From an uncultured candidatus Porisulfidus sp. (GTDB taxonomy: Bacteria > Pseudomonadota > Gammaproteobacteria > Poriferisulfidales > Poriferisulfidaceae), in NCBI GenBank assembly GCA_965221375.1, contig OZ244883.1:1107893-1171892 (forward strand): a stretch of DNA of 64,000 bases. The letters run 5' to 3'. The position numbers were made by a program, and so were the translations under genes. Positions within the stretch are counted from its first letter, which is position 1; each line of letters starts with the position of its first letter. This document shows positions 15,349 to 41,279 of this stretch, one piece after another. Below the pieces are notes generated by a model, which searched no databases, was not told where the DNA came from, and worked only from the letters and a program-made list of their open reading frames with translations.

Positions 15349-16107
15349 TCAGCGCTTAGGCAGGTATTTCAAAGGATTGACCGGCGTTCCTTTACGCCGC
15401 ATCTCAAAATGCAACTGCGGCCGATCCGCGCCTGTCTTGCCCATATAGGCAATGGTTTGTCCTGCTCGGATTTGTTCACCCTCGGCCACCAATAGACGAT
15501 CATTGTGGGCATATGCAGTTAAGAATTCATTGGCATGCTGCACGATGACCAGACGCCCGTACCCAATCAGCCCTTCACCGCTGTAGACCACCGTCCCTCC
15601 TGCGGAAGCCACGATCTTTTGATTCATTTTCCCGGAAATAAGAATGCCCTGCTTGCCGGATGATTTGGGTGAAAATTTTCGAATCACCTTGCCTTGGGTC
15701 GGCCAAAGCCAAGTGATTTTTCCGGAAGAAGATCCCCCGCTCGATGCATAGGCAGGTTGCTTGGGCTTTTGGCTCTTGGGCTTTTGTGGCTTGCTGGCAA
15801 CATTCCATGTTTTCGCCGGAATTGTCAACTTCTGTCCGGCTTTTAATTTGTCAGGTTGCTTGATTTTGTTATAACTCGCAATGCGGTGCCAGTCCGTTTT
15901 AAAACATTGCGCAATCTCACTGAGGGTATCGCCTTGGCGAACAACGTAGGCAATAGGTTTATTCCCAACCGGGCGACACGTCACAGCAGAAGGCTCCAGC
16001 ATGTCTTCAATAAAATTTCGAGTGTCGGACCAAAGTGAACATCCGGAAGTGCTGGCGAGCAGCATCACTAGGAATAGGTTCCGGAAAACTCTTGAAATCA
16101 CTGCCAT
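15349..16107 (-). CDS. nlpD: LysM + M23 peptidase lipoprotein (NlpD-like murein hydrolase activator)
   Basis: 252 aa; signal peptide ending LLASTSGCS (lipoprotein-like), LysM (YVVRQGDTLSEIAQCF), Pro/Lys-rich linker, C-terminal M23 domain (HANEFLTAYAHN...GQTIAYMGKTG). Confidence 0.8.
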   Translation of the reverse strand: MAVISRVFRNLFLVMLLASTSGCSLWSDTRNFIEDMLEPSAVTCRPVGNKPIAYVVRQGDTLSEIAQCFKTDWHRIASYNKIKQPDKLKAGQKLTIPAKTWNVASKPQKPKSQKPKQPAYASSGGSSSGKITWLWPTQGKVIRKFSPKSSGKQGILISGKMNQKIVASAGGTVVYSGEGLIGYGRLVIVQHANEFLTAYAHNDRLLVAEGEQIRAGQTIAYMGKTGADRPQLHFEMRRKGTPVNPLKYLPKR

Positions 16108-16667
16108 TCATGCAGCAGGATGACTGCAACCAGCAACCCGGCCAACAACCAACCAATCCACTCGATGTGACGCCGTAGCCAAGGCTCAAAGCGCCCGCCC
16201 ACCCAACGCAACAATCCCGCAACCAGAAAATAGCGGGCACCACGCCCGACGATGGAAGCAATGACAAACAGCGGGAGCGACAACGACATGACGCCGGCGC
16301 TGATCGTAAACGCTTTATAAGGAATCGGCGTGAATGCCGCCACCAGCACAATCCAAACTCCCCATTCGATAAACATCTGCTGAGCCTGAACGAAATGACT
16401 GCCCGTCAGCCAAGGCTCCAACCATCCAAAAACCAACACCCCCAGAAAATAACCGACGACCCCACCGAGGACAGAGGTCACTGTCGCCAGCGCGGCATAT
16501 TCAATCCATCGCCTTGAGTGTGCCAGTACCATCGGCGCAAGCAGCACATCGGCAGGAATCGGAAAAAAAATAGCCTCGACAAAGCTGACCCCACCCAAAA
16601 ACCAACGAGCGCGTTTATGTGCGGCCCAGCTAAGCGTTCGCTCATAAAGAGGATTGAATATGCGCAC
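16098..16667 (-). CDS. yqaA: YqaA-family inner membrane protein (DedA/VTT-related, COG1238)
   Basis: 189 aa; LYERTLSWAAHKRARWFLGGVSFVEAIFFPIPADVLLAPM plus four or more hydrophobic helices; 10-nt overlap with the nlpD-like start suggests co-translation. Confidence 0.7.
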   Translation of the reverse strand: MRIFNPLYERTLSWAAHKRARWFLGGVSFVEAIFFPIPADVLLAPMVLAHSRRWIEYAALATVTSVLGGVVGYFLGVLVFGWLEPWLTGSHFVQAQQMFIEWGVWIVLVAAFTPIPYKAFTISAGVMSLSLPLFVIASIVGRGARYFLVAGLLRWVGGRFEPWLRRHIEWIGWLLAGLLVAVILLHEWQ

Positions 16668-16791
16668 TACAAACTAGTCTTTCCCCCGGAAATATGTAAG
16701 CAAAGCCAAGTGGTTTTGGTGAGGGTGGACTCGGCGGTGGAGCCGCCGAGCACCCAAATCTTCCAGATGATTGCCGAAATTAAGCCAAGTT

Positions 16792-17520
16792 TTACTGGAG
16801 CTGTGTAATAAATGTCAGCGCCGCAATCACCAAACTCGCGGAAATGAAAGAGTACCACATAATCAAAGCTTGCATTTTCGAACTCACCGCGTCAATCTTC
16901 GTATCCATACTTTGGATTTTCCCAGTCATGTCTGCACGCAACGTCTGGATTTCTCCAGTCATGTCTGCGCGCAACGTCTGGATTTCTCCTCGCAGCTCTT
17001 TATGCGCACCGTCCATATCCGAACGTAATGTCTGGATTTCTCCTCGCAGCTCTTTATGTGCACCGTCCATATCCGAGCGCAACGTCTGGATTTCTCCTCG
17101 CAGCTCTTTATGCGCACCGTCCATATCCGAGCGTAATGTCTGGATTTCCCCAGTCATGTCTGTGCGCAACGTTTGGATTTCCCCAGTCATGTCCGCTCGC
17201 AACGTTTGGATTTCCCCAGTCATGTCTGCGCGCAACGTTTGGGTTTCCCCAGTCATGTCTGCGCGCAACGTTTGGGTTTCCCCAGTCATGTCTGCGCGCA
17301 ACGTTTGGGTTTCCCCAGTCATTTCCGAGCGCAACGCTTCAATTTTGCTATCCAAGTGGCGAACATTTTCTTTGGTGGCCAAATGCGGAATCTGTGCCTC
17401 AATACTCGTCAAGCGTTCCGAGATATTGATCACCGCGGCCGATTCAGCCACCAGCTCGGGCACCGGTTCTTGCGAAGACATTGAGGGATTGGCGGGTTGG
17501 GGTTGTGAGGTCATGACCAT
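16792..17520 (-). CDS. membrane-anchored coiled-coil protein, DUF1640-like, with expanded internal tandem repeats
   Basis: ORF-track start 17547 is a TTG; the most likely start is ATG 17520 (MVMTSQ), which has GGAG 7 nt upstream. N-terminus LATKENVRHLDSKIEALRSEM and C-terminal hydrophobic anchor ALIMWYSFISASLVIAALTFITQL resemble bacterial DUF1640 (CCDC90/MCUR1-like) proteins. The middle is 11-aa (TQTLRADMTGE) and 18-aa (IQTLRSDMDGAHKELRGE) repeats. Confidence 0.6.
   Translation of the reverse strand: MVMTSQPQPANPSMSSQEPVPELVAESAAVINISERLTSIEAQIPHLATKENVRHLDSKIEALRSEMTGETQTLRADMTGETQTLRADMTGETQTLRADMTGEIQTLRADMTGEIQTLRTDMTGEIQTLRSDMDGAHKELRGEIQTLRSDMDGAHKELRGEIQTLRSDMDGAHKELRGEIQTLRADMTGEIQTLRADMTGKIQSMDTKIDAVSSKMQALIMWYSFISASLVIAALTFITQLQ
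16922..17340. repeat. in-frame coding tandem repeat array: 2 x 33 bp, 3 x 54 bp, then about 5-6 x 33 bp units
   Basis: Read directly on the + strand: CCAGTCATGTCTGCGCGCAACGTCTGGATTTCT (33 bp) and CCTCGCAGCTCTTTATGCGCACCGTCCATATCCGAACGTAATGTCTGGATTTCT (54 bp). Units differ by only a few point substitutions, with a gradient of divergence. Confidence 0.9.
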
Positions 17521-17885
17521 TTTCTCCATAGGCAAGGCCAAAGTCAAGAGAAGCGCATGGCTGTGGACCTGAGTCTCGCCACTGGGGCGCTTCCGATTAT
17601 ACCCCGCCGCACGAAGCGAATCTTCGGCGAAGGGGAGGATTCCTCATCCTATGTCAGTGATAATCCGAAGTCCAGAAAAAACGGTCAGACCAACCTGCAC
17701 ATTTTTTTTTCACATTTAAATCAATAGATTAACCTTGTTTTTAAGGTTCTGTAGAGACAGATTTTGGCAAGAATGGGCGCGAAAATGCGCTTTTTCAGGG
17801 TGTTCGAGAATATGTCCGAACCCGTTTCAACTTGATTCGTTCAAGTGACACAGGGAAAGGCGGCCCGAATTTGATGGCGTGGCAC

Positions 17886-18566
17886 TTATTTATGGGACAT
17901 GGCATTCGCCTCCCGTACCAAAGGCACAAACAATACATCCGCCAACACTTGCCGCGCCATCCCAGTCTTTCTGCGGGTGTAGCGCACTAGCACTTGTGTC
18001 TCGTGCGGATGCCCTTCCGGCATTACCAAGCATCCGTCTGGCGCCAGTTGCTCGACCAGCGCTTTCGGGATTTTGGGTGTCGCCGCGGTTAGCATAATCG
18101 CATCAAAAGGAGCCCTCTGGGGCCACCCTTCACTCCCATCACCCAACCGCGTAACAACATTACGCAAACCGAGCTCCTTCAGCTTTGAAGTTGCCTGCTG
18201 ATAAAGCTGCGGAATGCATTCGATACTGTAAACCCGCGAGACCAGCTGCGCCAAAATAGCGCATTGGTAACCGGAACCTGTACCAATTTCCAATACTTTT
18301 TTAGGAATCTTCGACTCAAGCAGGGCTTGGGTCATCAGCGCCACAACATAAGGCTGAGAAATCGTTTGCTCATACCCGATCGGCAAGGCGCTGTCCCGGT
18401 ATGCATGATGGGCAACCGCGTCATTTAAAAACCGGTGGCGCGGGGTGCTCAGTATGGCCTGCAGAACCGCTTCATTCGTAATCCCCTTTTTACGTAAGCG
18501 CTCAACCAATCCTTCGCGATGCCGCCGGGCAGTCATCCCGATGCCTTCGTCACGCAATCGCTTCAT
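17886..18566 (-). CDS. pcm: protein-L-isoaspartate O-methyltransferase
   Basis: 226 aa; SQPYVVALMTQAL, SAM motif VLEIGTGSGYQCAILA; 4-nt overlap with surE (surE-pcm operon). Confidence 0.9.
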   Translation of the reverse strand: MKRLRDEGIGMTARRHREGLVERLRKKGITNEAVLQAILSTPRHRFLNDAVAHHAYRDSALPIGYEQTISQPYVVALMTQALLESKIPKKVLEIGTGSGYQCAILAQLVSRVYSIECIPQLYQQATSKLKELGLRNVVTRLGDGSEGWPQRAPFDAIMLTAATPKIPKALVEQLAPDGCLVMPEGHPHETQVLVRYTRRKTGMARQVLADVLFVPLVREANAMSHK

Positions 18567-21828: not shown

Positions 21829-23058
21829 TCAGGAGCTCAATTTTTGACGGACCTCGCTGCGTCCGAGTTCAGGCTTCTGAAAATGGCGCAGGAGCGCCGA
21901 TGGCCCCTGTGCTTGAAACTCTTCGAGTGAAGGCCCCTTGTACTGGCAGTAGGACGTGCTGGTTTCGTGAATTTCCAATTCTTCCAGAGCCGGCAAATAA
22001 TCAATCAATCGCTCCCATATCCATGCGGCCAGGAATTCGGTACTGGAGCGCCATGCCAATTCCGGCGCCGCATAGTTGAGCGTATGATGATCCAAGGCGC
22101 GGATGACACGTGCATCGATGATGTGCTTGAGGATACCGTAATCCATCACAAAGCCATGGGCGGGATCGATGCGGTCATGAATCTTGAAATGCGCCGCATA
22201 GTGCCCCCCATGAAGATTGGCGCATGATCCGGGATGATCCGTGATGAAATGCGCTGCATCGAAGCCTCGCTCCTTGACAACGGTTGCCCGTGGCCCGTCA
22301 CCGCAGAATCGGTCGTCTTGTCCGGGGATTTCCCGCAACGACGTCTGCAGCGCCTGACACAATCGTTGTGTGTCCTCCAAACTTCGGGTCCGCAACCATA
22401 CCCGGTCGTCCAACGGCTCCAGTTTCTGGAGGTTGACACCGTGCTTATCCAGCAACCACTGACATAAGGCATCAAACTCTTGACTGGCCGGTGCTTGGAA
22501 AAAAATGTAACCCGCCTGAGGTGACGCACAGCACGTCACCACCACCGCTACGTAGCGGTCGCGGTCTTCGTCGGATAATTCAGCAAACTCCACCGGGGTA
22601 ATGGCTTCCTGATTGGATCGTTTCAATACGTTGCGGGCAACCATCCGATGGCTTCCGCCGGCGATGGAGTATTCCTGGCGAAACACAAAACCCAACGGCT
22701 GCAGATGTTGCTGCATCCACAAAAGCGCATCAAGGCTGCGAATTTCCCCCGGAATCACTTGCCAGACCTCGTCTTCATCCAAACGGCCTGCCGTTCGGGC
22801 CGCTCCCAAAACAATACGTCCGTCGTGATGGTTTGGATCGGAGGCGTGCGGGTAATCCTCAGGATTTTCTTCCTGATCTGCCTTGTGCGCCGGAACCAAC
22901 GTATCCAGCATCACACCGTGGCGCAGAGCATATTCCTGCAGTGTCAAGCCGCAACATGCGAGCAAATGCTCGTCCAAAATTTCAATATCTGTCTGGCATT
23001 CGGGGCATTTCATAAGCACAAATCCGCAGGGGACGCCTTTCGTTTCATTGTACGGCAA
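21829..23058 (-). CDS. fusion protein: N-terminal uncharacterised domain (Cys-rich zinc-ribbon-like start) + C-terminal 6-pyruvoyl-tetrahydropterin synthase (PTPS/QueD-fold) domain
   Basis: 409 aa. The last ~125 aa (FDAAHFITDHPGSCANLHGGHYAAHFKIH...LDHHTLNYAAPELAWRSSTEFLAAWIWERL) carry the PTPS/QueD signature (His triad, LDHxxLN). The first ~270 aa start MKCPECQTDIEILDEHLLACCG, a family I do not recognise. Lies at the edge of the H4MPT gene block. Confidence 0.6.
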   Translation of the reverse strand: MPYNETKGVPCGFVLMKCPECQTDIEILDEHLLACCGLTLQEYALRHGVMLDTLVPAHKADQEENPEDYPHASDPNHHDGRIVLGAARTAGRLDEDEVWQVIPGEIRSLDALLWMQQHLQPLGFVFRQEYSIAGGSHRMVARNVLKRSNQEAITPVEFAELSDEDRDRYVAVVVTCCASPQAGYIFFQAPASQEFDALCQWLLDKHGVNLQKLEPLDDRVWLRTRSLEDTQRLCQALQTSLREIPGQDDRFCGDGPRATVVKERGFDAAHFITDHPGSCANLHGGHYAAHFKIHDRIDPAHGFVMDYGILKHIIDARVIRALDHHTLNYAAPELAWRSSTEFLAAWIWERLIDYLPALEELEIHETSTSYCQYKGPSLEEFQAQGPSALLRHFQKPELGRSEVRQKLSS

Positions 23059-23075
23059 AGGTCACCGGCAGACCT

Positions 23076-23107
23076 AAAAAAAAGCGCCGCATAAGCGGCG
23101 CTTTTTT
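23076..23107 (-). terminator. rho-independent terminator after fae (bidirectional-type hairpin)
   Basis: A8 - AGCGCCGC - ATAA - GCGGCGCT - T6 read directly; sits 19 nt downstream of the fae stop on the minus strand. Confidence 0.8.
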
Positions 23108-23125
23108 CCGAACGAATCGGCGGGC

Positions 23126-23650
23126 TTAGAAGCCTTGGAAGGGGTGATCGGTGCTGTCTTTGGCAGAAAGCACATCATCAACCGAAGGAGTTCCAGCAAC
23201 AGCATTTGCAATCGCCTGCTTGGTCGCCTTGTAGTTGTTTTCATAAATCGCCGCATCGCTGGCTGCTTCCCAGTGAATGAAGACACCTACGCACACGTAG
23301 AGATTGTCACATTCATCTTTGGGGATAACGCCTGCTTCCACGGAATCCGCGACTGCCATGGCCACAGCTTTCTGTGCGGGGCCAAACATTTGCACGGCTT
23401 GCTTTGCGCCTTTGATCGTCACCTTGTTGTACATCATGGTGTCGGGTTTGCACGGCAGGTTCGGGCCAACCACAGCCAGCAGGGTGGTGAAACCGTCCTT
23501 GTTGTTCACCAAGCCATTGCAGAATGCGGTTTCCGCCGCGGAGCCGCGCGGTCCAATGATGAGATCGATGTGGGCGATTTCGGCCATAGTCCCGGAGGGA
23601 TCATTGTCATTGACCAAAGCCTCGCCAACGAGAACTTTATCGATTGCCAT
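23126..23650 (-). CDS. fae: formaldehyde-activating enzyme (5,6,7,8-tetrahydromethanopterin hydro-lyase)
   Basis: 174 aa from ATG 23650 (GGAG 8 nt upstream): [16 protein letters not shown]...[44 protein letters not shown]...[17 protein letters not shown]...IHWEA, collinear in my memory with Methylobacterium Fae. The ORF-track start at 23680 adds a spurious 10-aa extension. Confidence 0.9.
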
Positions 23651-23670
23651 TATTAAAACTCCAAAAATTT

Positions 23671-23684
23671 TTGTTTGCAAACAA
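23671..23684. promoter_or_regulatory. perfect 14-bp palindrome TTGTTTGCAAACAA in the fae 5' region
   Basis: Read directly, 21-34 nt upstream of the fae ATG and 29 nt downstream of the orf7-like stop; flanked by AAAAATTTTT. Confidence 0.4.
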
Positions 23685-23712
23685 CGGGCACGCAGTTTTA
23701 AGACGCCCCCGA

Positions 23713-24630
23713 TTAGATTCGAGAATCACTTCCCGAGGTCAGGACATCGCTGTCCCGATCATCGCTCCACCCCGCAAGCCGCGCCGCAAACACTCCTGCG
23801 AGTGTTAAATCCGCCGTGGTTCCGGGGCTGATACCGGAGCTTTTCCACAAAGCATCCAGTTCCAGGAGCCGTGACTGATAAGTTTGCGGAACTTTTGCAT
23901 CGCAAAACTTATCTGCCAGCGACTTAATCTTACCACTAATTGCGTCCGCCGTAGCCGCACCATGCACACGGGCGACATGAGAATCCGGATAATGCGCCAG
24001 CATATGCAGAAACGTTCCGACCATCGCCCAGCGCGGGTCTTTCCAACGTTGGCACAAGTTTTCCCACTGCGGCTGCGCTTGATTTAGAACAAGTTCGAAG
24101 CCGTTGCAGTACTCGGCTGCGATGCGATCGCGGGACGACGCCAACTCCATCGCGGCGCGCAAAGAAATCCTGGGCGCGTCCTGAATATCCGCTTTTTCAA
24201 CCTGACCCAGGCCCACCGGCTGCATGAGTCGGATGGCGCGATAAACATCGCGTGCATCGGTCACTGTGGTCGCCTCCAATACCTGGGGAAGACATTTCGA
24301 CCACTTTTCTTCGGCACAGCGGTAATACGCCTCCACCATGGGAGCAACCAGCAGCAATATGCCGATATTCGTATTGCAGCCCACGACTTCCCAGGTCGCT
24401 TGCGCGGCTTGCCACACACGCTTCCCCAAAGTCCAGTTCGGCCGAGTCACCAACTCTGCGGAGGCTTGGGCACTTTGCCGAAAATCTCGACATGTTTTAC
24501 CGTGCCCTTCTCCATGCAAGCCGACATTCCCTGGTTTTAGCGACTGCAAATCAAGCAAACAGGCGTAAAGGTATTGACGTGAAACAAACCGCCACGTCGG
24601 TTCATAGTGAGCACGCAGATAACGAAACAC
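23713..24630 (-). CDS. triphosphoribosyl-dephospho-CoA synthase (CitG/MdcB)-like protein of the H4MPT cluster (Orf7-like)
   Basis: 305 aa; family assignment is from the overall CitG-like pattern and its fixed position between fae and the RimK-like ATP-grasp gene in methylotroph H4MPT islands. Weaker than neighbouring calls. Confidence 0.55.
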
Positions 24631-24641
24631 TGCAGAAAACT

Positions 24642-25544
24642 TTACGCTTCCTTATGACAATGCGCCAAGAAACCTTCAATCAACAATTCGGAAATATCCT
24701 GCTGACTGACTTGCTGGAGACCCCGCCATGCCGGAATGCTATTGATTTCGGTCACCCAAAACGCACCCTCCCGATCCTGCATCAGGTCGACTCCCGCATA
24801 GGACATGTCCACGGCCGATGTCGCGCGCTGGGCCAAATCCGACAACTGACTATCCAGAGCGGCAGGATAGCCTTGACCTCCATTGGCGATATTGCTGATC
24901 CAATCATTCCCTTCTCTTCGCATCGCTGCCTGTGCCCGGCCTTTCACCACCAACACCCGCCAGTCGCAACTGCCCGAAGCTGCCGACTCAATGTATTCCT
25001 GCAGATAGTACATGCCGTGATACAAATCATAATTCGGATGCGGCGTCTCACGGGTCAACCGCATCAATCCTTTGCCTTGAGATCCAAAGATAGGTTTCGC
25101 AACAATACTCTCGTGAGTCTCAAACCAATGCGCCAGGAAGGCGCGAGTTTGGCGAAGACTTCGGGCCACGAAAGTGCGCGGAGTCGGAATGCCGTGGTGG
25201 GCGAATAAAAAACTGGCGCGTACTTTGTCTACACTGCGCTCAATCGCACCGGCATCGTTGTAGACACCAATGCCCTTGGCCTCCAAGGCGTGAAGCACAT
25301 CCAAATAAAAAATAACCTCTTCAAGAGTGCCTCCCGGCACTTCTCGAACAAAAACACCTGCCGGCAATTGACCGTCGAAACCGGGCAAGTCAATGTGCGC
25401 GCCTTTGTGATCAATCTCGATACGGCACTCGCGCAAACTGACAAAACAGCTGTCCCGATCATGTCGCTTGAGCGCCTGCTGAAGTTGTTGCCCGTGCCAG
25501 CCCGGATGGTCCGTTACGATGGCGTAACGCCCAGGTGCGGTCAT
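24642..25544 (-). CDS. RimK-like ATP-grasp ligase, tetrahydromethanopterin:alpha-L-glutamate ligase-like (Orf5/MptN-like)
   Basis: 300 aa; ATP-grasp features IVAKPIFGSQGKGLMRL, DWRVLVVKGRAQAAMRR, WISNIANGG, GVDLMQD...WVTEINSIP; overlaps the mch start by 4 nt. Confidence 0.75.
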   Translation of the reverse strand: MTAPGRYAIVTDHPGWHGQQLQQALKRHDRDSCFVSLRECRIEIDHKGAHIDLPGFDGQLPAGVFVREVPGGTLEEVIFYLDVLHALEAKGIGVYNDAGAIERSVDKVRASFLFAHHGIPTPRTFVARSLRQTRAFLAHWFETHESIVAKPIFGSQGKGLMRLTRETPHPNYDLYHGMYYLQEYIESAASGSCDWRVLVVKGRAQAAMRREGNDWISNIANGGQGYPAALDSQLSDLAQRATSAVDMSYAGVDLMQDREGAFWVTEINSIPAWRGLQQVSQQDISELLIEGFLAHCHKEA

Positions 25545-26500
25545 TCTTCAAACGACTGCTTCAAAAGATCAGCATCCAAGGCTCCGGCCGCAAAGGAGCG
25601 GCCCGTCTGAATATTACTGACCAGTACCCGTGCCGGACTGAATAACATCGGATCGATTTTGAAAAAGTCGTATTCGTAATCTTTGAATATCGTGGCAAAA
25701 GGCTTGCCGTAATCGCGCGAAGTACTGCTCGGTAATTGTGTTGCTAAACGCTCCGCTTCCTCATCGCTCGATTGGACAAACAGTTTGACCTGTCCGCCGA
25801 ACAAAATCGCATCGTTGGTGCGACCCATCATTTTCACCATATCGGAACTATTCAGGGGTGGGACCGGCGCACTGCCGATGCCATCGATGACCTGTTGCAG
25901 ATCAAACCCCAATACATGCGTTTTATGCAGCGCCACTTCCAATACCCGACCCACAACCTGCACCGTGCCCGCGAGACTGGTGGTAGGTGTCAAAATCAAT
26001 GTGAGATTTTCGGGTTCGACATTACAGTCTCGACAGATTTTCTGGCGCACGGAAAGCGGCGGCACCCGGTCCACTTCCATCACCAGAGTCGTTGTGTCGT
26101 GCTCATCCCGATAGTCGAGCTCACTAAACAACTCTTCACGCTGCGCCAGGCAACGCGCCGGACCCGAGCCCAAGGCATGAAATTTTTCTTCCGAATCGTT
26201 CAAGCTCCAGCCGGCATACTGGCTCGCCAGGCAAGCCAATACCGGATGCTGGGTATGTATGTGAATGGACAACGGCCAATCATCCGGACGATCATAGGTG
26301 AAGGTCGCCTGTCCCAACCCGCCTAGACAAATTTCAGTAATTTGACGACCGGCTTCAATACCGCCCACCGTCTCAATGCCCGCATCAATAATCCGTACAC
26401 CTTCTTCCGTCCGGGATTTTTTGATGCGTAAATTTTCGGCATCCTCCACTAAATGACACACCAATGGATCGGCCAGTTGATTAATGCTAATGCGCGACAT
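25541..26500 (-). CDS. mch: methenyltetrahydromethanopterin cyclohydrolase
   Basis: About 319 aa from MSRISINQLADPLV; RIIDAGIETVGGIEAGRQITEICLGGLG matches Mch. The ORF-track start at 26533 adds 11 aa and lengthens the overlap with the upstream gene. Confidence 0.88.
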   Translation of the reverse strand: MSRISINQLADPLVCHLVEDAENLRIKKSRTEEGVRIIDAGIETVGGIEAGRQITEICLGGLGQATFTYDRPDDWPLSIHIHTQHPVLACLASQYAGWSLNDSEEKFHALGSGPARCLAQREELFSELDYRDEHDTTTLVMEVDRVPPLSVRQKICRDCNVEPENLTLILTPTTSLAGTVQVVGRVLEVALHKTHVLGFDLQQVIDGIGSAPVPPLNSSDMVKMMGRTNDAILFGGQVKLFVQSSDEEAERLATQLPSSTSRDYGKPFATIFKDYEYDFFKIDPMLFSPARVLVSNIQTGRSFAAGALDADLLKQSFEE

Positions 26501-27647
26501 GGACAACCTCTTGTGGTAGCTGTGCGGAGTCAAAATGTGCGGATAATTTTTCCAATACGTCGGCGCGCAAATCTTCTAATTCGGCAAGCACCGTGTCGGC
26601 ATCACTCCCGCGGCTGTGTACCGTGCATAAGGGATTCCCTTTTGACACTCTGGTTTGGGCGTGCGGCCGGTCTGCGGCCGCATCCGGCCACTGACAATGT
26701 GCGGAAATAATGACTTCTTGGGGCGCATAGACAACCCGCATCCCGTTCACGCCGCCTGCGTCAGGCACCAACACATCCCGCGCGATGTTCTTATCAAGAC
26801 ACGTTTGGATATGTGCTTGCATATAACCGTGCAGAAAACGTTCCTGATACAGCTCGCATGTTGCAGTTAAGCGGGGATTGAGATCAAGCATGAAGATACG
26901 GTGATCAGAAGTGAGAACAAAATCAAAGCCACAAAGGCCAAGCAAGCCCAAATCACACGTCAGATTGTCAGCAATCCATTGTACTTGCTCCAGCGCTTCG
27001 GGCGGCAATTCCACCGACCCAATGGCGCCGCCCCACATATAAGGCGTTGCCGCCTCTTCCGCCGCCAGCAGGCGGCTGACCCCAATCAATTCCGCCTCGG
27101 TCCCACCCGCCAAAAACAAGGCTGAATGTACGTCTCCCTCGCAATAACGCTGCCAATAAATCTCTTGATCGCGCCCCTCATACGAATCTGCCGGATGCAC
27201 ATGCGCTCCACCCGAACGCCGGTTACGTTTGACTAACCAACCCGATTGTGACTCGGGTGCAGTGTGACGCATCTCCGGCATCGGTATCTGCAAAACATCG
27301 CAGCGCGAAGTCAGTGATCGTGCATCCGTGCACTGGCGCAGGACTTCCTCGGAATTTCCAAGCACGTTGACATGCCTTTTCAGTTGAGTCAAGAGTCCCG
27401 GGTCTGCTTCGAAGCCCGAGCCGTAGATCAGCCGGTCGCCCGATTGGCTGCGCTCGCTGACCTGCCGCACAATTTCCGCAGTGAATTGCCCTTCCCGCAA
27501 CGGCACGACACGGCACTCATCGGCCTGCAGATCTTCGTCTGCAAACCCATCCAAAGCAATCACTGGACAATGCAGGTGCGCGGCCGCCTGGGCATGCGCC
27601 CGCGCTGAAGCCGACAGCACAAACAGGCGGCTTATTTGGCTGCGCAC
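26487..27647 (-). CDS. ATP-grasp superfamily protein of H4MPT-linked C1 clusters (OrfY/COG2232-like)
   Basis: 386 aa; ATP-grasp-like central region (LVKRNRRSGGAHVH, GLCGFDFVLTSDHRIFMLDLNPR). Position between mch and mtdB is typical for methylotroph H4MPT islands. Family assignment is moderate. Confidence 0.55.
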   Translation of the reverse strand: MRSQISRLFVLSASARAHAQAAAHLHCPVIALDGFADEDLQADECRVVPLREGQFTAEIVRQVSERSQSGDRLIYGSGFEADPGLLTQLKRHVNVLGNSEEVLRQCTDARSLTSRCDVLQIPMPEMRHTAPESQSGWLVKRNRRSGGAHVHPADSYEGRDQEIYWQRYCEGDVHSALFLAGGTEAELIGVSRLLAAEEAATPYMWGGAIGSVELPPEALEQVQWIADNLTCDLGLLGLCGFDFVLTSDHRIFMLDLNPRLTATCELYQERFLHGYMQAHIQTCLDKNIARDVLVPDAGGVNGMRVVYAPQEVIISAHCQWPDAAADRPHAQTRVSKGNPLCTVHSRGSDADTVLAELEDLRADVLEKLSAHFDSAQLPQEVVHVAH

Positions 27648-28531
27648 TGGCGCGCTACTTCAAACGCATGTTCGAAATGGTAATACACCGGCTCGTCCGT
27701 TTCGCGCATCTGTCGCAACAAAGTCTGTTGCGTCTGGTACTTCACATTGCCAATCGCCAAAGCGCCGATACCGACAGCGCCACTGCCGGAGTCCTCGATG
27801 GGTTTCGCATCATCCATCACCCCCAGGCCATGAATTCCCGAAGGCGGAACCGCATTGACATCCGCCGCCACTTTCAGACGTGGTGCACTTGCAATCTGTT
27901 CTTTTGACATCAATTGAATGCCTGCCGCGGCAGATGCAAAAATCACATCCGTCTCATTGAGCAAGGTATCCAACTGATCGTTGGCCTCACCGTCAATCGA
28001 CGTGCCGGCTTCGTATTTCTGATTGCATAGCTGCGCCGCCTGCTCACTTTTTTCTTTCTTGCGCCCCAAAATGGTGACGTGTGCGCCTGCGTCTGCGGCA
28101 ATGACCGCGGCGGCGGAGCCGACCGGTCCAGTGCCCCCGAGAGCCAAAATGCGCTGGTCTGAAAGTTCTGTGCCATGTACATCGCGAAGTGATTTTTCGA
28201 CTTTTGCGACCATGGCCGCTGCCGTCGTAAATGCCCCACTGGGATCCGCGAAAGCGGAAATCACAAAAGGCGGAACCATGGATTTCTGGCAGATTTCCAG
28301 CATTTCCATGGCCTGATGCATGTCACGACCGCCAATAAACAGCCCGGTCCGGCGCACGCCGCTGGGCCCGCGTGAAAAAATTGCATCTTCCACCAGTCCT
28401 TTGGTGTCTTCCACTTCCACCTGGATATACGGAATGCAGGCATCCCAGCCTGCGTCGTAAGCCATGTTGGCGTCAAAGGGGCTCAGATTCTTCGCAGAAG
28501 TGAGCATATGCAGTAAATATTTTTTGTCCAT
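27632..28531 (-). CDS. mtdB: NAD(P)-dependent methylene-tetrahydromethanopterin dehydrogenase
   Basis: 299 aa; GGRDM, LGGTGPVGSAAAVIAADAGAHVTILGRK Rossmann segment, overall collinear with MtdA/MtdB. Confidence 0.85.
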   Translation of the reverse strand: MDKKYLLHMLTSAKNLSPFDANMAYDAGWDACIPYIQVEVEDTKGLVEDAIFSRGPSGVRRTGLFIGGRDMHQAMEMLEICQKSMVPPFVISAFADPSGAFTTAAAMVAKVEKSLRDVHGTELSDQRILALGGTGPVGSAAAVIAADAGAHVTILGRKKEKSEQAAQLCNQKYEAGTSIDGEANDQLDTLLNETDVIFASAAAGIQLMSKEQIASAPRLKVAADVNAVPPSGIHGLGVMDDAKPIEDSGSGAVGIGALAIGNVKYQTQQTLLRQMRETDEPVYYHFEHAFEVARQCAAK

Positions 28532-28563
28532 AAAAAATGTATTCGAAAATTGAAGAGGTAATT

Positions 28564-29550
28564 TTAAGAAATTTGGCGCTGCAGCGGAATCCCTTCCGCC
28601 ATCTCACCTGTCATGACCTGGTGCCCATGGTTGCAGGCACGCACAACATGAACCAACACGTCCGGTTCCGCAAGCTGCAATTCGCGGGAAAGTTTTTGCG
28701 CCTGGGTTTCGCTCTCGGTCAACACAAACCCCGTGGGGCCCCACGAACTTTGTCCTATGCCGGCGAAGCCCAACTGTTCTGCTTTATTCAAACTCGAAGC
28801 AATGGCCGGATGGGTGAAGCGGCCTCCTTGAACCGGAGCGAAATGATCTCCGACCGTCTTCTGCAACTCACCGATGCCCTGCGCAAAGGGTTCGAAATTC
28901 CCCTCAAACAACGCCGGTAAAACACGCATCAAGGTCAACCGACATAGGTGGGCGGCTTTTGCTTCCGGAAGTTTCGGCAAATCATCAAAAGCGGTCCGCT
29001 CCGCGGTTCCCGACAATCCTTCCTCGCCACTTTTTGCTTGCAGCAATACAATCCGCCAATGCTCGGGAAAAGTCTGGCGCACGATAATGGGAGGCAATTT
29101 GGCAGGCTCGCCCCGGCCCCCATCCAGCAAAAATCCTCCTTGCTGAAACGCACCCCATCCAATGCCCGACCTGGATCCTCGGCCCAGTTCAATGCTGATA
29201 TCCCGAAGGCTCATCTCAATGTCAAACAGATATTTAATCGCTGCACCCACGGCCAATGCCAACTGCGTCCCGGATCCTAGTCCCACATGCCCCGGAATGG
29301 CTTCATGCATATGAATTTGGACCGCACCCGGACAATGATAATGCTGCATGACTCGACGCGCATAGTCACAGGCTCGCTGCGCATCCGGGCCGGTCGCTGA
29401 GAATTCGCCGGCAGGCTCGCAGGACAAGTGCGTGCAAAGTTCGCTCAGTGCTACCCCCATGCTTCCGAAATGCCGCCCCAGTCCCCCATGCATATCCAGA
29501 AAACCAAGGTGTAGTCGACCTTGAGTCTTGATTTGAACCGCTTTATTCAT
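28564..29550 (-). CDS. mptG: beta-ribofuranosylaminobenzene 5'-phosphate synthase (H4MPT biosynthesis), GHMP-kinase fold
   Basis: 328 aa; GHMP motif IPGHVGLGSGTQLALAVGAA; fixed member of the H4MPT island. Confidence 0.75.
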   Translation of the reverse strand: MNKAVQIKTQGRLHLGFLDMHGGLGRHFGSMGVALSELCTHLSCEPAGEFSATGPDAQRACDYARRVMQHYHCPGAVQIHMHEAIPGHVGLGSGTQLALAVGAAIKYLFDIEMSLRDISIELGRGSRSGIGWGAFQQGGFLLDGGRGEPAKLPPIIVRQTFPEHWRIVLLQAKSGEEGLSGTAERTAFDDLPKLPEAKAAHLCRLTLMRVLPALFEGNFEPFAQGIGELQKTVGDHFAPVQGGRFTHPAIASSLNKAEQLGFAGIGQSSWGPTGFVLTESETQAQKLSRELQLAEPDVLVHVVRACNHGHQVMTGEMAEGIPLQRQIS

Positions 29551-32600: not shown

Positions 32601-33516
32601 TTGCTGCCCCCGGAAAAGGCGAAATGCCCGTGGGGTGGTTATGGGTCTCAACTTTAATCACGATGCCATATTCACCGTCTGACGATTTCCACAAGCGGCT
32701 CTCTGGGTCCACCGCCATGCGGCTGTAGCGGCCCGCCTGCATCACTGCCGCATTGTCTTGATAAGCCGACAGAACACCCTCCGGGGAAACCTCGAAGGTA
32801 TTGCGAATCATGTCAAACAAACTTCGCTCAATAGGCTTGCCGTCGATTGTCCAAGATGCGTTGAAAATCTTGTGGCGGCAATGTTCGGAATTGACTTGAG
32901 CAAACATCATCAGCTCTGCATCCGTTGGATATTTCCCTATTTTTTCATAGGCTTGATGCAAATAGGCAATATCCGCTTCAGATAAGGCCAAACCATAACG
33001 CGCATTCGCGTCACGCAAGATCGATACCCCATCATTCTGAAAATCAACGGTTTCAAGGGGCTGAGGCTCAGAGGACTGAAACAACTGAGCAATTTCCTTC
33101 ACATCCGCCAAAATGGTCTCGGTCATCGGATCGTGCAGCATGAGCAACAATTCCGGCTTCAGCCGTTCCACTCCTTCGATGCGATATTCAATGCCCCGCT
33201 CGATGCGCCTCACCGTTGTCAGGCCGCAAACACGAAAAATCTCTGTTGCTTTACTGGACCAGGGCGAAATCGTGCCCAGCCGCGGAATCGCAAAACATGG
33301 GGATCCGGAAGTTATTTCCTCACTCGCCGGAGCGTAATCAAGCAAAGCGCCCAATACGAGTTCTTCGCTTTGGGTGAAATCTGCGTCGCAATCTACAAAA
33401 TGATAGTACCGGGCACTGACAATAGTGCCGGAATGCTTTGCCGTAAGTCTCGCATTGAGTTTGCGGAGAAAACTACCGGACAGTGCCTGGCCGCCTGGAT
33501 AGATGCGTACGGGCAT
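29668..33516 (-). CDS. purL: phosphoribosylformylglycinamidine synthase (single-chain large PurL)
   Basis: 1282 aa; N-terminal domain, FGAM synthase PurM-like repeats, C-terminal class-I glutamine amidotransferase (GVCNGCQ). Confidence 0.93.
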   Translation of the reverse strand: MPVRIYPGGQALSGSFLRKLNARLTAKHSGTIVSARYYHFVDCDADFTQSEELVLGALLDYAPASEEITSGSPCFAIPRLGTISPWSSKATEIFRVCGLTTVRRIERGIEYRIEGVERLKPELLLMLHDPMTETILADVKEIAQLFQSSEPQPLETVDFQNDGVSILRDANARYGLALSEADIAYLHQAYEKIGKYPTDAELMMFAQVNSEHCRHKIFNASWTIDGKPIERSLFDMIRNTFEVSPEGVLSAYQDNAAVMQAGRYSRMAVDPESRLWKSSDGEYGIVIKVETHNHPTGISPFPGAATGSGGEIRDETACGRGGRPKAGLCGFTVSNLNLSNWIQPWERPERGHSPRMARPLDIMIEGPIGAASFNNEFGRPCLSGYFRTLEMEVPSSSGRRTYGYHKPIMIAGGLGSIQAGHIHKQTIPEGAAIVVLGGPAMLIGLGGGAASSQHTGASHEELDFASVQRSNPEMQRRAQEVIEQCVAHGEKNPILSIHDVGAGGLSNAIPELVDGKPGGAELELRDIPCADSGMSPREIWCNEAQERYVLAIRPESLDDFAKICQRERSPYAVVGYATDAGRLRLSDRMLKNVVIDMPLSVLFGESANLHLDIKSTTKTATPFDSVGIVFEEAVDRVLAMPSVGSKAFLITIGDRSVGGLTVRDQMIGPWQVPVADAAVTASDFQGFSGEAMSMGERPMLAIHQPAASARMAVAEALTNMASVKVRNRQRICLSANWMAASSDTESLQGLRAAVETVGMEFCPQLGIVIPVGKDSLSMQAAWGDQRVLSPVSLVISAFAPVDHVRRHITPQLRDEESTSLLLIALDEQRRLGGSALAQAYAQVGSDTPDVEDAQQLAAFFDLVQALLEEDQLLAYHDRSDGGLWACLCECAFAARLGLSLDIPTDEKDVLSYLFNEEIGAVVQVRDAEVETICRRFEQVGLVCERIGEIQQSPELSLHCQGHHVRTWSLTDLHQLWSRTSYEIARRRDNEECARSEYEESRTWGRPPLFAEVSFDPCENPAALHVGVGAKPVVAILREQGVNGQVEMAAAFAQAGFECRDVCMNDLQASPELLEDTVGLAACGGFSYGDVLGAGGGWAKNILFHNKLRDLFQRFFERPDVFALGVCNGCQMMSQLKDIIPGAECWPRFVKNSSEQFEARLSQVEILESPSILLQGMAGSRVPIVVAHGEGCADFSDEKQRLNVSACLRFVDAHGEATEHYPHNPNGSAGGLTAFTNTDGRFTIMMPHPERVFRTVQHSWHPSEWSDEAPWLRLFRNARAWVA

Positions 33517-40271: not shown

Positions 40272-40411
40272 GATTGTCCGCAGTTCCTGCGCTGCTTACT
40301 CGCGTAACACCTCGCTACTCCATGCACATCTTTATTTTACTTTCAAACGTATGAAAGCGTCTCGACCGCCTCAACTGTACCTGCAAAACCCCCATAGAAA
40401 AGAACCGCACA

Positions 40412-40834: not shown

Positions 40835-40841
40835 AATGAAC

Positions 40842-41264: not shown

Positions 41265-41279
41265 CTCAAATCACGTCAC

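What the first reader, a model, noticed from the sequence alone, without database searches (positions are those of the whole stretch)
16792..17547. Repeat-expanded, membrane-anchored coiled-coil protein (DUF1640-like) inserted between pcm and yqaA-nlpD
The minus-strand ORF has an N-terminal coiled-coil start (LATKENVRHLDSKIEALRSEM) and a single C-terminal transmembrane anchor. To me this resembles the short bacterial DUF1640 (CCDC90/MCUR1-like) proteins. Here the middle has been inflated by about 11 copies of an 11-residue unit (TQTLRADMTGE) and 3 copies of an 18-residue unit (IQTLRSDMDGAHKELRGE). At the DNA level these are near-perfect 33 bp and 54 bp direct repeats, about 420 bp in all, with a gradient of divergence along the array. 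Such arrays mutate by slipped-strand or recombinational gain and loss of units, so the protein length is probably variable between strains. An 11-mer periodicity suggests an amphipathic 11/3 helix, a geometry used by lipid-surface-binding proteins. The gene, together with yqaA, interrupts the otherwise conserved surE-pcm-nlpD stationary-phase cluster. The alternative + strand ORF across the same repeats (242 aa) is a shadow reading frame.
Basis: partly seen in the sequence, partly recalled or inferred. Interest (0 to 1): 0.7.

Follow-up and report, generated by a model that had tools for sequence, protein, structure and literature searches.

The report
Repeat-lengthened membrane-anchored coiled-coil rod gene
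A small bacterial gene for a rod-shaped protein anchored in the membrane by its tail has been lengthened about 2.5-fold by tandem DNA repeats whose sizes keep the rod's helical pattern intact. This is a tidy example of a known kind of protein and a known kind of repeat evolution, not a new system.

Summary
The minus-strand ORF is a real gene, most likely 17514..16792 (240 aa). It carries 426 bp of near-perfect in-frame repeats: 7 good and 1 degenerate 33-bp unit, plus 3 units of 54 bp.

The protein has a disordered N-terminal tip and a short helix. An IPHLATKEN element follows, which matches solved trimeric beta-layer coiled coils. Then comes one predicted helix of about 190 residues with a single hydrophobic seam (3.63 residues per turn), ending in one C-terminal transmembrane segment.

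A copy that is 98% identical outside the repeats (P0001, 138 aa) has one unit of each type. I could not tell whether it is an allele or a recent paralog.

The DUF1640 label is only partly right:
- The above-threshold Pfam score is inflated by the repeats (45.1 bits, against 25.9 for P0001 and no hit for paralog P0156).
- The head domain is missing.
- The beta-layer motif, the stalk and the tail anchor fit.

yqaA is not part of the insertion. Nine related loci have pcm directly followed by yqaA, so only the coiled-coil gene was inserted.

The lipid-binding 11/3-helix idea is disfavoured.

Function is unknown. The best guess is a cytoplasmic trimeric spacer or scaffold rod of variable length. 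It is ordinary to mildly interesting.

The parts
16792..17514 (-). Coding sequence of the tail-anchored coiled-coil protein. It is 240 aa plus the stop codon, with the most likely start at ATG 17514. The longest ORF starts at TTG 17547.
   Evidence: ORF list. P0001 and P0156 both begin MTSQ. Codon-usage log-likelihood ratio is +0.254 per codon. Candidate starts are listed.
17524..17527 (-). GGAG Shine-Dalgarno sequence, 9 nt upstream of ATG 17514.
   Evidence: Sequence read directly.
17458..17514 (-). N-terminal tip rich in Pro, Ser and Gln (aa 1-19), predicted disordered. It is conserved in paralog P0156.
   Evidence: AlphaFold2 pLDDT about 45 and no secondary structure. Alignment A3.
17392..17457 (-). 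Short helix upstream of the beta-layer element (aa 20-41, ...VINISERLTSIEAQ).
   Evidence: AlphaFold2 helix 20-41. Highly conserved between P0001 and P0156.
17365..17382 (-). LATKEN (aa 45-50), a beta-layer motif. The consensus is [aliphatic]-A-T-K-[polar]-[D/E]; here N replaces D/E.
   Evidence: Motif scan. Consensus from PMC4786415. A profile anchored on the motif hits 6H9L at E=8.6e-11 and the Tcar0761 construct 5APZ at E=4e-4. AlphaFold2 breaks the helix at residues 42 and 47.
17128..17325 (-). Six tandem 33-bp units encoding (E/D)MTGE(T/I)QTLR(A/T/S). These are hendecads with I/T, L and M at positions a, d and h.
16966..17127 (-). Three tandem 54-bp units encoding DMDGAHKELRGEIQTLR(S/A). 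Each has 18 residues (18/5 periodicity, i.e. 11 + 7).
16900..16965 (-). One good and one degenerate 33-bp unit (DMTGEIQTLRA, DMTGKIQSMDT).
16807..16863 (-). The single C-terminal transmembrane segment (aa 218-236, IMWYSFISASLVIAALTFI). Only four residues (TQLQ) follow it.
   Evidence: Kyte-Doolittle 19-residue window mean of 1.97. The maximum elsewhere is 0.70.
16844..17572 (+). Antisense shadow ORF (242 aa), not a gene.
   Evidence: No family hit. No Shine-Dalgarno sequence. Codon-usage log-likelihood ratio is -0.20 per codon. It shares third-codon positions with the real frame.
17548..17885 (-). 338-bp non-coding spacer between the pcm stop and the ORF. It is part of the inserted segment. 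Its GC content is lower (0.43-0.47) and it contains a TATAAT box.
   Evidence: No Rfam match. Fold z-score -2.8.
16668..16791 (-). 124-bp spacer between the gene's stop and the yqaA GTG start. It has a GC-rich hairpin (about 16723-16755) with no T-run after it.
   Evidence: The z-score for the whole spacer is only -1.18.
17886..18566 (-). pcm, the upstream flank of the insertion.
   Evidence: PF01135, 207.9 bits.
16098..16667 (-). yqaA (DedA/VTT family), the downstream flank. It lies directly after pcm in all nine related loci.
   Evidence: PF09335. Loci L001-L009. Alignment A2.

Best explanation
**What it is.** This is a real, lineage-specific gene for a small C-tail-anchored rod protein.

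**Shown:**
- The protein has a disordered but conserved N-terminal tip, then a short helix.
- An IPHLATKEN element follows, which matches the beta-layer motif of solved trimeric alpha/beta coiled coils.
- Then comes one uninterrupted predicted helix of about 170 cytoplasmic residues. Its hydrophobic residues form a single narrow seam at 3.63 residues per turn.
- One C-terminal transmembrane helix ends the protein.
- The middle of the stalk is encoded by tandem 33-bp and 54-bp units. These are 11- and 18-residue units, i.e. the 11/3 and 18/5 coiled-coil periodicities, so adding or losing a unit changes length without breaking the core register.
- A copy that is 98% identical outside the array has one unit of each kind and is 102 residues shorter.

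**Inferred:**
- The protein is inserted N-in and forms a parallel homotrimeric, almost unsupercoiled rod on the cytoplasmic face of the inner membrane.
- The rod would be about 25 nm long here and about 10 nm in the short copy.
- The conserved tip would be the interaction site and the stalk a spacer or scaffold. This is by analogy with the matrix-facing mitochondrial DUF1640 scaffolds MCUR1, CCDC90B and Put6/7.
- The array grew by unequal recombination or replication slippage. Only register-preserving unit lengths are tolerated.
- Its position inside surE-pcm-yqaA-nlpD is an insertion and does not imply a shared function.
For: **Gene and strand:**

**Repeat anatomy:**

**Structure**
- AlphaFold2 gives a single helix over residues 48-239 at pLDDT above 90, with breaks at residues 42 and 47.
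- The hydrophobicity power spectrum of residues 48-215 peaks at 3.63 residues per turn (power 114, against 11 at 3.5). I, L and M sit at positions a, d and h. One transmembrane segment lies at 218-236.

**Beta-layer motif**
- The consensus and its presence at the start of the DUF1640 stalk come from PMC4786415.
- A profile of 19 'headless' relatives, anchored on the motif, hits three solved entries:
  - 6H9L, three chains, E=8.6e-11;
  - the Tcar0761 alpha/beta coiled-coil construct 5APZ, E=4e-4;
  - 5APX, E=0.022.

**Length variation**
- P0001 compared with the window protein.
- Among 174 homologs of 400 aa or less, 128 have internal repeats. Their periods are 11 (63 proteins), 18 (25), 22 (11), 29 (17), 36 (3) and 40 (4). 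Only 3 have periods of 7 or 14.
- Near-identical pairs differ by exactly 11, 22 or 23 residues.

**Other points**
- The first 63 residues are about 79% identical between paralogs P0001 and P0156, while the stalk is about 30% identical.
- Differences between units are mostly synonymous: 9 against 6 in the 33-bp units and 5 against 1 in the 54-bp units.
- Insertion status: nine related loci lack the gene and have pcm and yqaA 1-9 nt apart.
Against: - Oligomeric state, topology and function are not measured. The AlphaFold2 run was a monomer from a single sequence, which makes almost any such sequence a long helix.
- The motif has N where the consensus has D/E.
- The family's head domain is absent, so the analogy with MCUR1 and CCDC90B is loose.
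- PF07798 is below threshold once the repeats are collapsed.
- The homolog set used for the period statistics was gathered with a query that itself carries 11- and 18-residue repeats, so it is biased toward such repeats.
- P0001 may be a paralog rather than an allele. Strain-level length polymorphism at this locus is therefore not proven, and no DNA for P0001 could be fetched.
- The synonymous/non-synonymous pattern is identical in the antisense frame. It shows constraint but does not tell the strands apart.
Confidence: 0.6

Rival explanations
1. One reading: the 11-residue repeats form a monomeric amphipathic 11/3 helix that lies on a lipid surface. This would resemble apolipoproteins, perilipins, alpha-synuclein or group-3 LEA proteins, perhaps with a stationary-phase or stress role.
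For: - The best Pfam hit by score is Apolipoprotein A1/A4/E (64.9 bits, E=1e-17) over residues 42-227.
- The repeat has 11-residue periodicity.
- The gene sits in a stationary-phase gene cluster.
Against: - The hit is below Pfam's threshold of 90 bits and drops to 17.8 bits in unexpanded P0001, so it reflects periodicity multiplied by copy number.
- Only 3 of 11 residues are hydrophobic, giving a narrow a/d/h seam. The rest are charged or polar, with a net acidic stalk (23 K+R against 32 D+E). Surface-binding helices have a broader apolar face, usually flanked by lysines (general knowledge).
- The beta-layer motif just upstream matches solved trimeric coiled coils.
- The position in the cluster is a lineage-specific insertion.
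Confidence: 0.12
2. The expansion has no functional meaning. This would be a dispensable, fast-evolving orphan-like gene in which a minisatellite expanded neutrally, tolerated only because 11- and 18-residue units do not break the helix. Length is then not a selected property.
For: - Close relatives are very rare. Only P0001 and P0156 were found among 5.8 billion clusters, both on one contig.
- The gene is absent from nine related loci.
- Units 2 and 3 are identical in DNA, so part of the array is very recent.
Against: - Older units have diverged mainly at synonymous sites (14 synonymous against 7 non-synonymous differences, and 3 of those 7 are one shared I/T difference).
- Codon usage over the repeats is gene-like at +0.31 per codon.
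- The same kind of whole-unit variation recurs in several unrelated members. That fits a tolerated or selected property of the class, not decay.
- This rival overlaps the best explanation; it differs only on whether length matters.
Confidence: 0.2
3. The gene is a remnant of a phage or mobile-element membrane protein, such as a lysis-module coiled-coil protein like XhlA or a DUF2730/Mu gp25-type protein, dropped between pcm and yqaA.
For: - There are weak sub-threshold hits:
  - DUF2730, 21.9 bits against a threshold of 24.9, for P0001;
  - XhlA, E=0.005, for P0156;
  - phrog_736, E=1.3e-5, over the region containing the motif.
- The gene is an insertion with its own 338-bp upstream spacer of lower GC content.
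Against: - All of these hits are below threshold and cover generic coiled-coil or motif segments. P0156 has no PHROG hit at all.
- No integrase, transposase or flanking repeats were found around the insert.
- There is no defence-system match beyond coiled-coil noise.
Confidence: 0.05
4. The + strand ORF (16844-17572, 242 aa) is the real gene, or the region is non-coding.
For: - The ORF is as long as the minus-strand one.
- It shows the same synonymous/non-synonymous pattern, because the two frames share wobble positions.
Against: - Codon-usage log-likelihood ratio is -0.20 per codon, against +0.25 for the minus frame.
- It has no Shine-Dalgarno sequence and no family hit.
- Its product, a W/P/C-rich repeat, has no recognisable features. 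The minus-strand product has a conserved motif, a transmembrane segment and hundreds of homologs.
Confidence: 0.02

Closest known systems
DUF1640 / CCDC90-like family (Pfam PF07798: MCUR1, CCDC90B, yeast Put6/Put7 and prokaryotic members)
   Same: - A C-terminal membrane anchor.
- A long coiled-coil stalk that begins with the [aliphatic]-A-T-K-x-[D/E] beta-layer motif (PMC4786415).
- PF07798 is the best specific family hit for P0001 (E=1e-5) and is above threshold for the window protein.
- The eukaryotic members face the matrix, the equivalent of the bacterial cytoplasm (PMC7519068).
   Different: - There is no head domain. The upstream part is a disordered tip plus a short helix ending in ...IPH. 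Headed members instead have G-F-x-E-x-Q-A-E-A-type heads.
- The Pfam score is below threshold without repeat inflation, and paralog P0156 has no hit.
- The motif ends in N, not D/E.
- The stalk is built from perfect tandem units.
Alpha/beta coiled coils with beta-layers (Tcar0761 of Thermosinus carboxydivorans; PDB 5APZ, 5APX and 5APY; PDB 6H9L)
   Same: - The LATK(E/D)x element matches these solved structures in a profile search.
- These structures are trimeric (6H9L has three chains).
- Tcar0761 also has a tandemly repeated unit (14 nonads), and 6H9L repeats ATKEDIEALRK with an 11-residue spacing.
   Different: - Here the repeated unit does not contain the beta-layer motif, which occurs only once.
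- The repeats are plain hendecads and 18-mers, predicted to be fully helical.
- Tcar0761 is related to DUF3782 endonuclease stalks and is not described in that paper as a tail-anchored protein.
Length-variable repeat proteins made by in-frame minisatellites (general class, for example streptococcal M and alpha-C proteins, or the stalks of trimeric autotransporter adhesins; from general knowledge)
   Same: - In-frame tandem units.
- Copy-number differences between near-identical genes.
- A gradient of divergence along the array.
   Different: Those are surface-exposed and vary under immune or phage pressure. This rod is predicted to be cytoplasmic (N-in tail anchor), where no such pressure is obvious.
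Apolipoprotein A1/A4/E-type 11/22-mer amphipathic repeats (PF01442)
   Same: 11-residue periodicity. It is the highest raw Pfam score, 64.9 bits.
   Different: - The score is below the gathering threshold of 90 bits and depends on copy number (17.8 bits in P0001).
- The hydrophobic seam is narrow.
- There are no proline punctuations.
- A membrane anchor and a beta-layer motif are present.

Membership tests
DUF1640 / CCDC90-like (PF07798) | Pfam model score above the gathering threshold (33.5 bits). | tested here: inconclusive
   The window protein scores 45.1 bits in two stretches. Unexpanded P0001 scores 25.9 bits and paralog P0156 has no hit. The pass is therefore due to repeat multiplication.
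DUF1640 / CCDC90-like (PF07798) | N-terminal head domain before the stalk. | tested here: not met
   Pfam matches cover only profile positions 58-137 (window protein) and 78-146 (P0001) of 175. AlphaFold2 gives a disordered stretch 1-19 and one short helix 20-41. The upstream sequence is unlike the headed members, which have G-F-x-E-x-Q-A-E-A.
DUF1640 / CCDC90-like (PF07798) | Beta-layer motif [aliphatic]-A-T-K-[polar]-[D/E] at the start of the C-terminal stalk (PMC4786415). | tested here: met
   LATKEN at aa 45-50 lies directly before the long helix. The last position is N instead of D/E. The same LATKEN is found in P0001, P0156 and P0302.
DUF1640 / CCDC90-like (PF07798) | C-terminal transmembrane anchor. 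| tested here: met
   Residues 218-236 have a Kyte-Doolittle mean of 1.97, and this is the only hydrophobic segment.
Alpha/beta (beta-layer) trimeric coiled coils | Sequence match of the motif region to solved beta-layer structures. | tested here: met
   Profile A4 against the PDB: 6H9L at E=8.6e-11, 5APZ (Tcar0761 construct) at E=4e-4, 5APX/5APY at E=0.022.
Alpha/beta (beta-layer) trimeric coiled coils | Parallel homotrimer. | not testable with these tools
   Only monomer prediction was available. A multimer prediction, or SEC-MALS or crystallography, would be needed.
Hendecad-type (non-heptad) coiled coil | Continuous hydrophobic seam with periodicity near 11/3-18/5, not 7/2. | tested here: met
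   The power spectrum of residues 48-215 peaks at 3.63 residues per turn (114, against 11 at 3.5). I, L and M occupy a, d and h in the 11-mer. I, L, M, A/H and L occupy positions 1, 4, 8, 11/12 and 15 in the 18-mer.
Apolipoprotein A1/A4/E (PF01442) / surface-binding 11-mer amphipathic helices | Pfam score above the gathering threshold (90 bits). | tested here: not met
   64.9 bits for the window protein and 17.8 bits for P0001.
Apolipoprotein A1/A4/E (PF01442) / surface-binding 11-mer amphipathic helices | Broad apolar face. | tested here: not met
   Only 3 of 11 residues in the unit are hydrophobic.
Length-polymorphic (minisatellite) gene | Different unit numbers in otherwise near-identical copies. 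| tested here: met
   P0001 is 98% identical and 102 residues shorter: it lacks five 11-mers, two 18-mers and one 11-mer. Whether it is an allele or a paralog is unresolved.
Phase-variable contingency locus (on/off switching) | Unit length not a multiple of three, so that gain or loss shifts the frame. | tested here: not met
   The units are 33 and 54 bp, both multiples of 3. Only length can change.
Conserved member of the surE-pcm-(yqaA)-nlpD cluster | Present at this position in related genomes. | tested here: not met
   Nine related loci (SurE 66-79% identical) have pcm and yqaA 1-9 nt apart and no homolog of the gene within 5-16 kb.

The most novel reading that the evidence does not exclude
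Stalk length may be a selected, quickly adjustable property of a widespread but uncharacterised class of bacterial tail-anchored rods, built from a beta-layer followed by hendecad repeats. These rods would act as cytoplasmic molecular rulers or spacers. Their reach would be reset by gain and loss of whole units of 11, 18, 22 or 29 residues.

On this reading the window gene (about 25 nm) and P0001 (about 10 nm) are two settings of the same device. The conserved N-terminal tip would be the docking site. In a methylotroph-type organism (Fae and H4MPT pathway genes are in the window), the spaced partner could be another membrane or a large cytoplasmic assembly.
Probability: 0.15. Interest if true: 0.55.

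Novelty: new member of a known kind. Interest (0 to 1): 0.3.

Why it matters
- **Annotation caution.** Tandem expansion multiplied profile scores. PF07798 went from 25.9 to 45.1 bits, Apolipoprotein from 17.8 to 64.9 bits, and the LmuB match from E=0.006 to E=4e-8. Family calls on repeat proteins should therefore be checked on a collapsed copy.
- **Structural constraint on a minisatellite.** Among the relatives, the repeat unit lengths are almost only 11, 18, 22, 29, 36 and 40 residues. [quoted passage not shown]
- **A possible handle on function.** Prokaryotic DUF1640-like proteins have no known function. If length matters functionally, natural length series such as this one could help to study them.
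- **Limits.** None of this overturns current understanding.

Tried and rejected
1. **Synonymous/non-synonymous test for strand.** I counted differences between repeat units to decide the coding strand. The test cannot discriminate, because the + ORF shares wobble positions and gives identical counts. I replaced it with a codon-usage likelihood test.
2. **Genome-contig scans.** One scan used Pcm and one used the alignment of the window protein with P0001.
3. **Metagenome-contig scan** with the P0001 + P0156 alignment found nothing.
4. **The look-up of encoding contigs** for P0001, P0036, P0156 and the window's Pcm and YqaA returned no record. The DNA context of P0001 and P0156 could therefore not be obtained.
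5. **Exact look-ups of the window ORF.** I tried seven minus-strand starts and three starts of the + strand shadow ORF, plus a second + strand ORF (17028-17429). None is in the collection. Yet 9 of 11 flanking proteins are identical to proteins on the 1,637,768-bp contig that carries P0001 and P0156. The allele-or-paralog question stays open.
6. **First homology search.** The full repeat protein as query was dominated by repeat words and missed paralog P0156. I repeated it with the unexpanded sequence.
7. **PHROG and PADLOC scans** gave only generic coiled-coil matches.
8. **Rfam** on the locus and both spacers gave nothing.
9. **Search for target-site duplications or terminal repeats** around the insert found nothing convincing. 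The relatives are too diverged to define the exact junction.
10. **A fold search with the model was not run**, because a single long helix gives meaningless matches.
Full report
**1. Observation**

The minus-strand ORF 17547..16792 is present.

Tandem Repeats Finder reports 33-bp and 54-bp arrays between 16913 and 17336 with 92-94% matches. The repeat finder recovers the same families.

Read codon by codon, the array is:
- six 33-bp units (17325-17128) encoding (E/D)MTGE(T/I)QTLR(A/T/S);
- three 54-bp units (17127-16966) encoding DMDGAHKELRGEIQTLR(S/A);
- one good and one degenerate 33-bp unit (16965-16900).

The total is 426 bp.

There are 7 good 11-mers, 1 degenerate one and 3 units of 18 residues.

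A gradient of divergence exists. Units 2 and 3 are identical in DNA. The other 33-bp units differ from them by 1-6 bases, and the degenerate unit differs by 10.

**2. Which strand codes**

The 242-aa + strand ORF shares third-codon positions with the minus frame. Synonymous and non-synonymous counts between units are therefore identical in both frames: 9 against 6 in the 33-bp units and 5 against 1 in the 54-bp units. This test cannot separate the strands.

A codon-usage likelihood ratio can. I trained it on 26 long genes of the window, comparing sense against wobble-matched antisense.
- The minus ORF scores +0.254 per codon. The training genes score 0.305 +/- 0.036, with a minimum of 0.243.
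- The minus frame is positive in the N-terminal part, the repeats and the C-terminal part separately.
- The + ORF scores -0.20 per codon.

Other evidence points the same way.
- ATG 17514 has a GGAG sequence 9 nt upstream. The + ORF has no Shine-Dalgarno sequence.
- The relatives P0001 and P0156 both begin MTSQ.
- Only the minus-strand product has homologs or family hits.

The gene is therefore 17514..16792 (-), 240 aa, in the same orientation as surE, pcm, yqaA and nlpD.

**3. Anatomy of the protein**

AlphaFold2, run on the single sequence, gives:
- a disordered stretch at residues 1-19;
- a helix at 20-41;
- breaks at residues 42 and 47, inside IPHLATK;
- one helix from 48 to 239 with pLDDT above 90.

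The only hydrophobic segment is 218-236, followed by TQLQ. The protein is thus a C-tail anchor and is most likely N-in. That orientation is inferred from three points: there is no signal sequence, lysines precede the segment, and the mitochondrial homologs face the matrix (PMC7519068).

The hydrophobicity spectrum of the stalk (residues 48-215) peaks sharply at 3.63 residues per turn, with power 114 against 11 at 3.5.
- In the 11-mer, I, L and M fall on hendecad positions a, d and h.
- In the 18-mer, I, L, M, A/H and L fall on positions 1, 4, 8, 11/12 and 15.

The two unit sizes are exactly the 11/3 and 18/5 coiled-coil periodicities described in PMC4786415. The hydrophobic seam is continuous through the whole array.

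At 0.15 nm per residue the cytoplasmic helix is about 25 nm long. Without the extra 102 residues it would be about 10 nm.

**4. The motif**

LATKEN (aa 45-50) fits the beta-layer consensus [aliphatic]-A-T-K-[polar]-[D/E], except for the final N. PMC4786415 states that DUF1640 membrane proteins carry this motif at the start of their C-terminal stalk.

I built a profile of 19 'headless' relatives aligned on the motif region. Against all PDB sequences it hits:
- 6H9L, three chains, with repeated ATKEDIEALR, at E=8.6e-11;
- the GCN4-Tcar0761 alpha/beta coiled-coil construct 5APZ at E=4e-4;
- 5APX/5APY at E=0.022.

The Tcar0761 and GCN4-fusion constructs are trimeric according to the paper. This is the main basis for proposing a parallel trimer. 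The oligomeric state itself was not testable here.

**5. Family membership**

PF07798 (CCDC90-like, DUF1640) scores 45.1 bits for the window protein against a threshold of 33.5. For P0001, the same protein with one unit of each type, it scores 25.9 bits. Paralog P0156 has no hit. The pass is therefore an effect of copy number.

The same inflation appears in other matches:
- Apolipoprotein: 64.9 against 17.8 bits;
- PADLOC LmuB: E=4e-8 against E=0.006;
- several PHROGs.

The DUF1640 head is absent.

The protein is best described as a headless relative of the DUF1640 class: short helix, P-H-L-A-T-K-x-(D/N), non-heptad stalk, C-terminal transmembrane segment.

This architecture is common among the homologs collected. 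Of 174 homologs of 400 aa or less, 105 have a C-terminal transmembrane segment, 57 have the motif and 54 have both.

**6. Lability of the repeats**

P0001 (138 aa) is 98% identical to the window protein outside the gaps and lacks 102 residues. The missing part corresponds to five 11-mers, two 18-mers and one 11-mer.

The apparent E64D change is explained by which unit is retained. The true substitutions are A8T, V51F and S56G.

P0156 (126 aa, 56% identical to P0001) lies on the same 1,637,768-bp contig as P0001 and is therefore a paralog.

Exact look-ups gave an unexpected result.
- Nine of 11 flanking window proteins (3,624 aa, including the 1,282-aa protein from 29668-33516) are identical to proteins on that same contig.
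- No version of the window's coiled-coil product or of the shadow ORF is in the collection.
- The first homology search found no self-hit either.

Two readings remain.
- **Allele.** P0001 is the allele at this locus in a nearly identical genome. NlpD, which has a low-complexity linker, was also not found as an exact match. That weakly favours two distinct genomes.
- **Paralog.** P0001 is a recent paralog elsewhere on the same chromosome.

I put the allele reading at roughly 55%. Either way, two copies that are 98% identical differ only by whole units.

The same behaviour appears elsewhere in the class:
- P0302 and P0303 are 100% identical except for one 23-residue unit. That unit contains the motif itself.
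- P0014, P0024, P0028 and P0029 differ by 11 or 22 residues.
- P0305 and P0307 differ by 11 + 22 residues.

Across the homolog set the internal repeat periods are 11 (63 proteins), 18 (25), 22 (11), 29 (17), 36 (3) and 40 (4). Only three proteins have periods of 7 or 14. A caveat applies: the set was collected with a query that itself carries 11- and 18-residue repeats.

**7. Genomic context**

I fetched nine related loci through YqaA homologs. Their SurE is 66-79% identical, and they come from marine and other metagenome assemblies. All show smr, surE, pcm, yqaA, nlpD, DUF498, an aminotransferase, hom and thrC. In all nine, pcm and yqaA are 1-9 nt apart, and no homolog of the coiled-coil gene is present.

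yqaA is therefore a resident of the cluster in this lineage. The insertion is about 1.2 kb: a 338-bp spacer, the gene and a 124-bp spacer. Only the window lineage has it.

Other checks on the insert:
- No mobile-element genes or flanking repeats were found.
- GC content dips only in the upstream spacer.
- Rfam finds nothing.
- No second copy exists in the 64-kb window.

The association with stationary-phase genes is best read as incidental.

**8. Mechanism and alternatives**

The most likely reading is a cytoplasm-facing, tail-anchored, probably trimeric and nearly straight rod. Its conserved tip does the binding and its stalk is a spacer.
- The tip (residues 1-63) is about 79% identical between paralogs, while the stalk is about 30% identical.
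- The array grows and shrinks by unequal recombination or slippage, and only register-preserving units survive.
- Purifying selection since the duplications is suggested by the mostly synonymous divergence between units and by gene-like codon usage over the repeats.

Function remains unknown. The scaffold idea rests on analogy with MCUR1, CCDC90B and Put6/7.

Rivals:
- a lipid-surface amphipathic helix, disfavoured by the narrow seam, the trimer-type motif and the sub-threshold, copy-dependent Apolipoprotein hit;
- a neutral expansion in a dispensable gene, which cannot be excluded and overlaps the main reading;
- a phage or lysis-protein remnant, supported only by weak sub-threshold hits;
- coding on the + strand, which is rejected.

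**9. Verdict**

The feature is real and correctly located, and part of its interpretation is correct. It is a new, repeat-expanded member of a known but functionally uncharacterised class.

Interest is modest. The main value lies in the clean link between the minisatellite unit sizes and coiled-coil register, in the evidence for labile stalk length, and in the caution about repeat-inflated family scores.

Noticed in passing
window 4510-33516 (flanking genes) compared with the contig carrying P0001 and P0156: Nine of 11 flanking window proteins, including the 1,282-aa protein from 29668-33516, are 100% identical to proteins on one 1,637,768-bp NCBI/ENA contig. The coiled-coil product itself is absent from the collection in every start variant tried, and so is NlpD with my chosen start. 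The look-up of encoding contigs has no record of that contig.
   Followed up: partly
window 33653-34006 (+) and 34189-35346 (+): A tmRNA gene (216 bits) is followed directly by a Fic/DOC-family gene (Fic_N + Fic). tmRNA genes are common integration sites, so this may be the edge of an island.
   Followed up: no
window 55661-56920 (-) and 56917-57288 (-): A HipA-like kinase toxin gene (HipA_C, 172.6 bits) is preceded by an overlapping 123-aa ORF with no Pfam hit. This is probably a hipBA-type toxin-antitoxin pair with an unusual antitoxin.
   Followed up: no
window 21829-29550 (-); L001-L003 and L007-L008: Fae sits at 23126-23680 and a PTPS-domain gene at 21829-23058. Fae, MCH, CitG and ATP-grasp genes (the H4MPT pathway) lie in the syntenic relatives. 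The organism therefore looks like a methylotroph or methanotroph. The relatives have small chromosomes (contigs of 1.35-1.85 Mb).
   Followed up: partly
L001 9861-11862 compared with L002 9730-9810: Two otherwise syntenic relatives differ by an inserted GmrSD_N (DUF262-type) gene plus a 45-aa ORF between DUF498 and the aminotransferase. This is another variable spot in the same conserved block.
   Followed up: no
P0302 (155 aa) compared with P0303 and P0304 (132 aa): In this relative the duplicated 23-residue unit (IAAQ[IL]PHLATKE[ND]LKEVKGQVSA) contains the beta-layer motif itself. Copy number there changes the number of predicted beta-layers (3 against 2), not only the stalk length.
   Followed up: partly
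window 16723-16755 (-): A GC-rich hairpin (GCUCGGCGG-CUCCA-CCGCCGAG plus an outer stem) lies just downstream of the gene's stop with no U-tract after it. It could be an RNA-stability element or a terminator variant. The spacer as a whole does not fold better than shuffled sequence (z = -1.18).
   Followed up: partly
P0157 (3006 aa), P0160, P0166, P0176, P0185 and P0267 (800-2200 aa): Very large proteins carry many stretches that match the same hendecad stalk (up to 14 stretches in P0157). They were not examined.
   Followed up: no
window 16098-16667 (-) and P0036: In the public collection the identical YqaA is called as a 144-aa protein starting at an internal Met. All nine relatives align with the GTG start used here (189-193 aa), so the database copy is probably truncated at its N-terminus.
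   Followed up: partly
window 42499-45357 (+): A 952-aa protein with a C-terminal PD-(D/E)XK nuclease domain (AddB-like) sits next to an ExbB/ExbD/TonB-like set of small membrane genes (39186-41948) and a TonB-dependent receptor (35543-38074).
   Followed up: no
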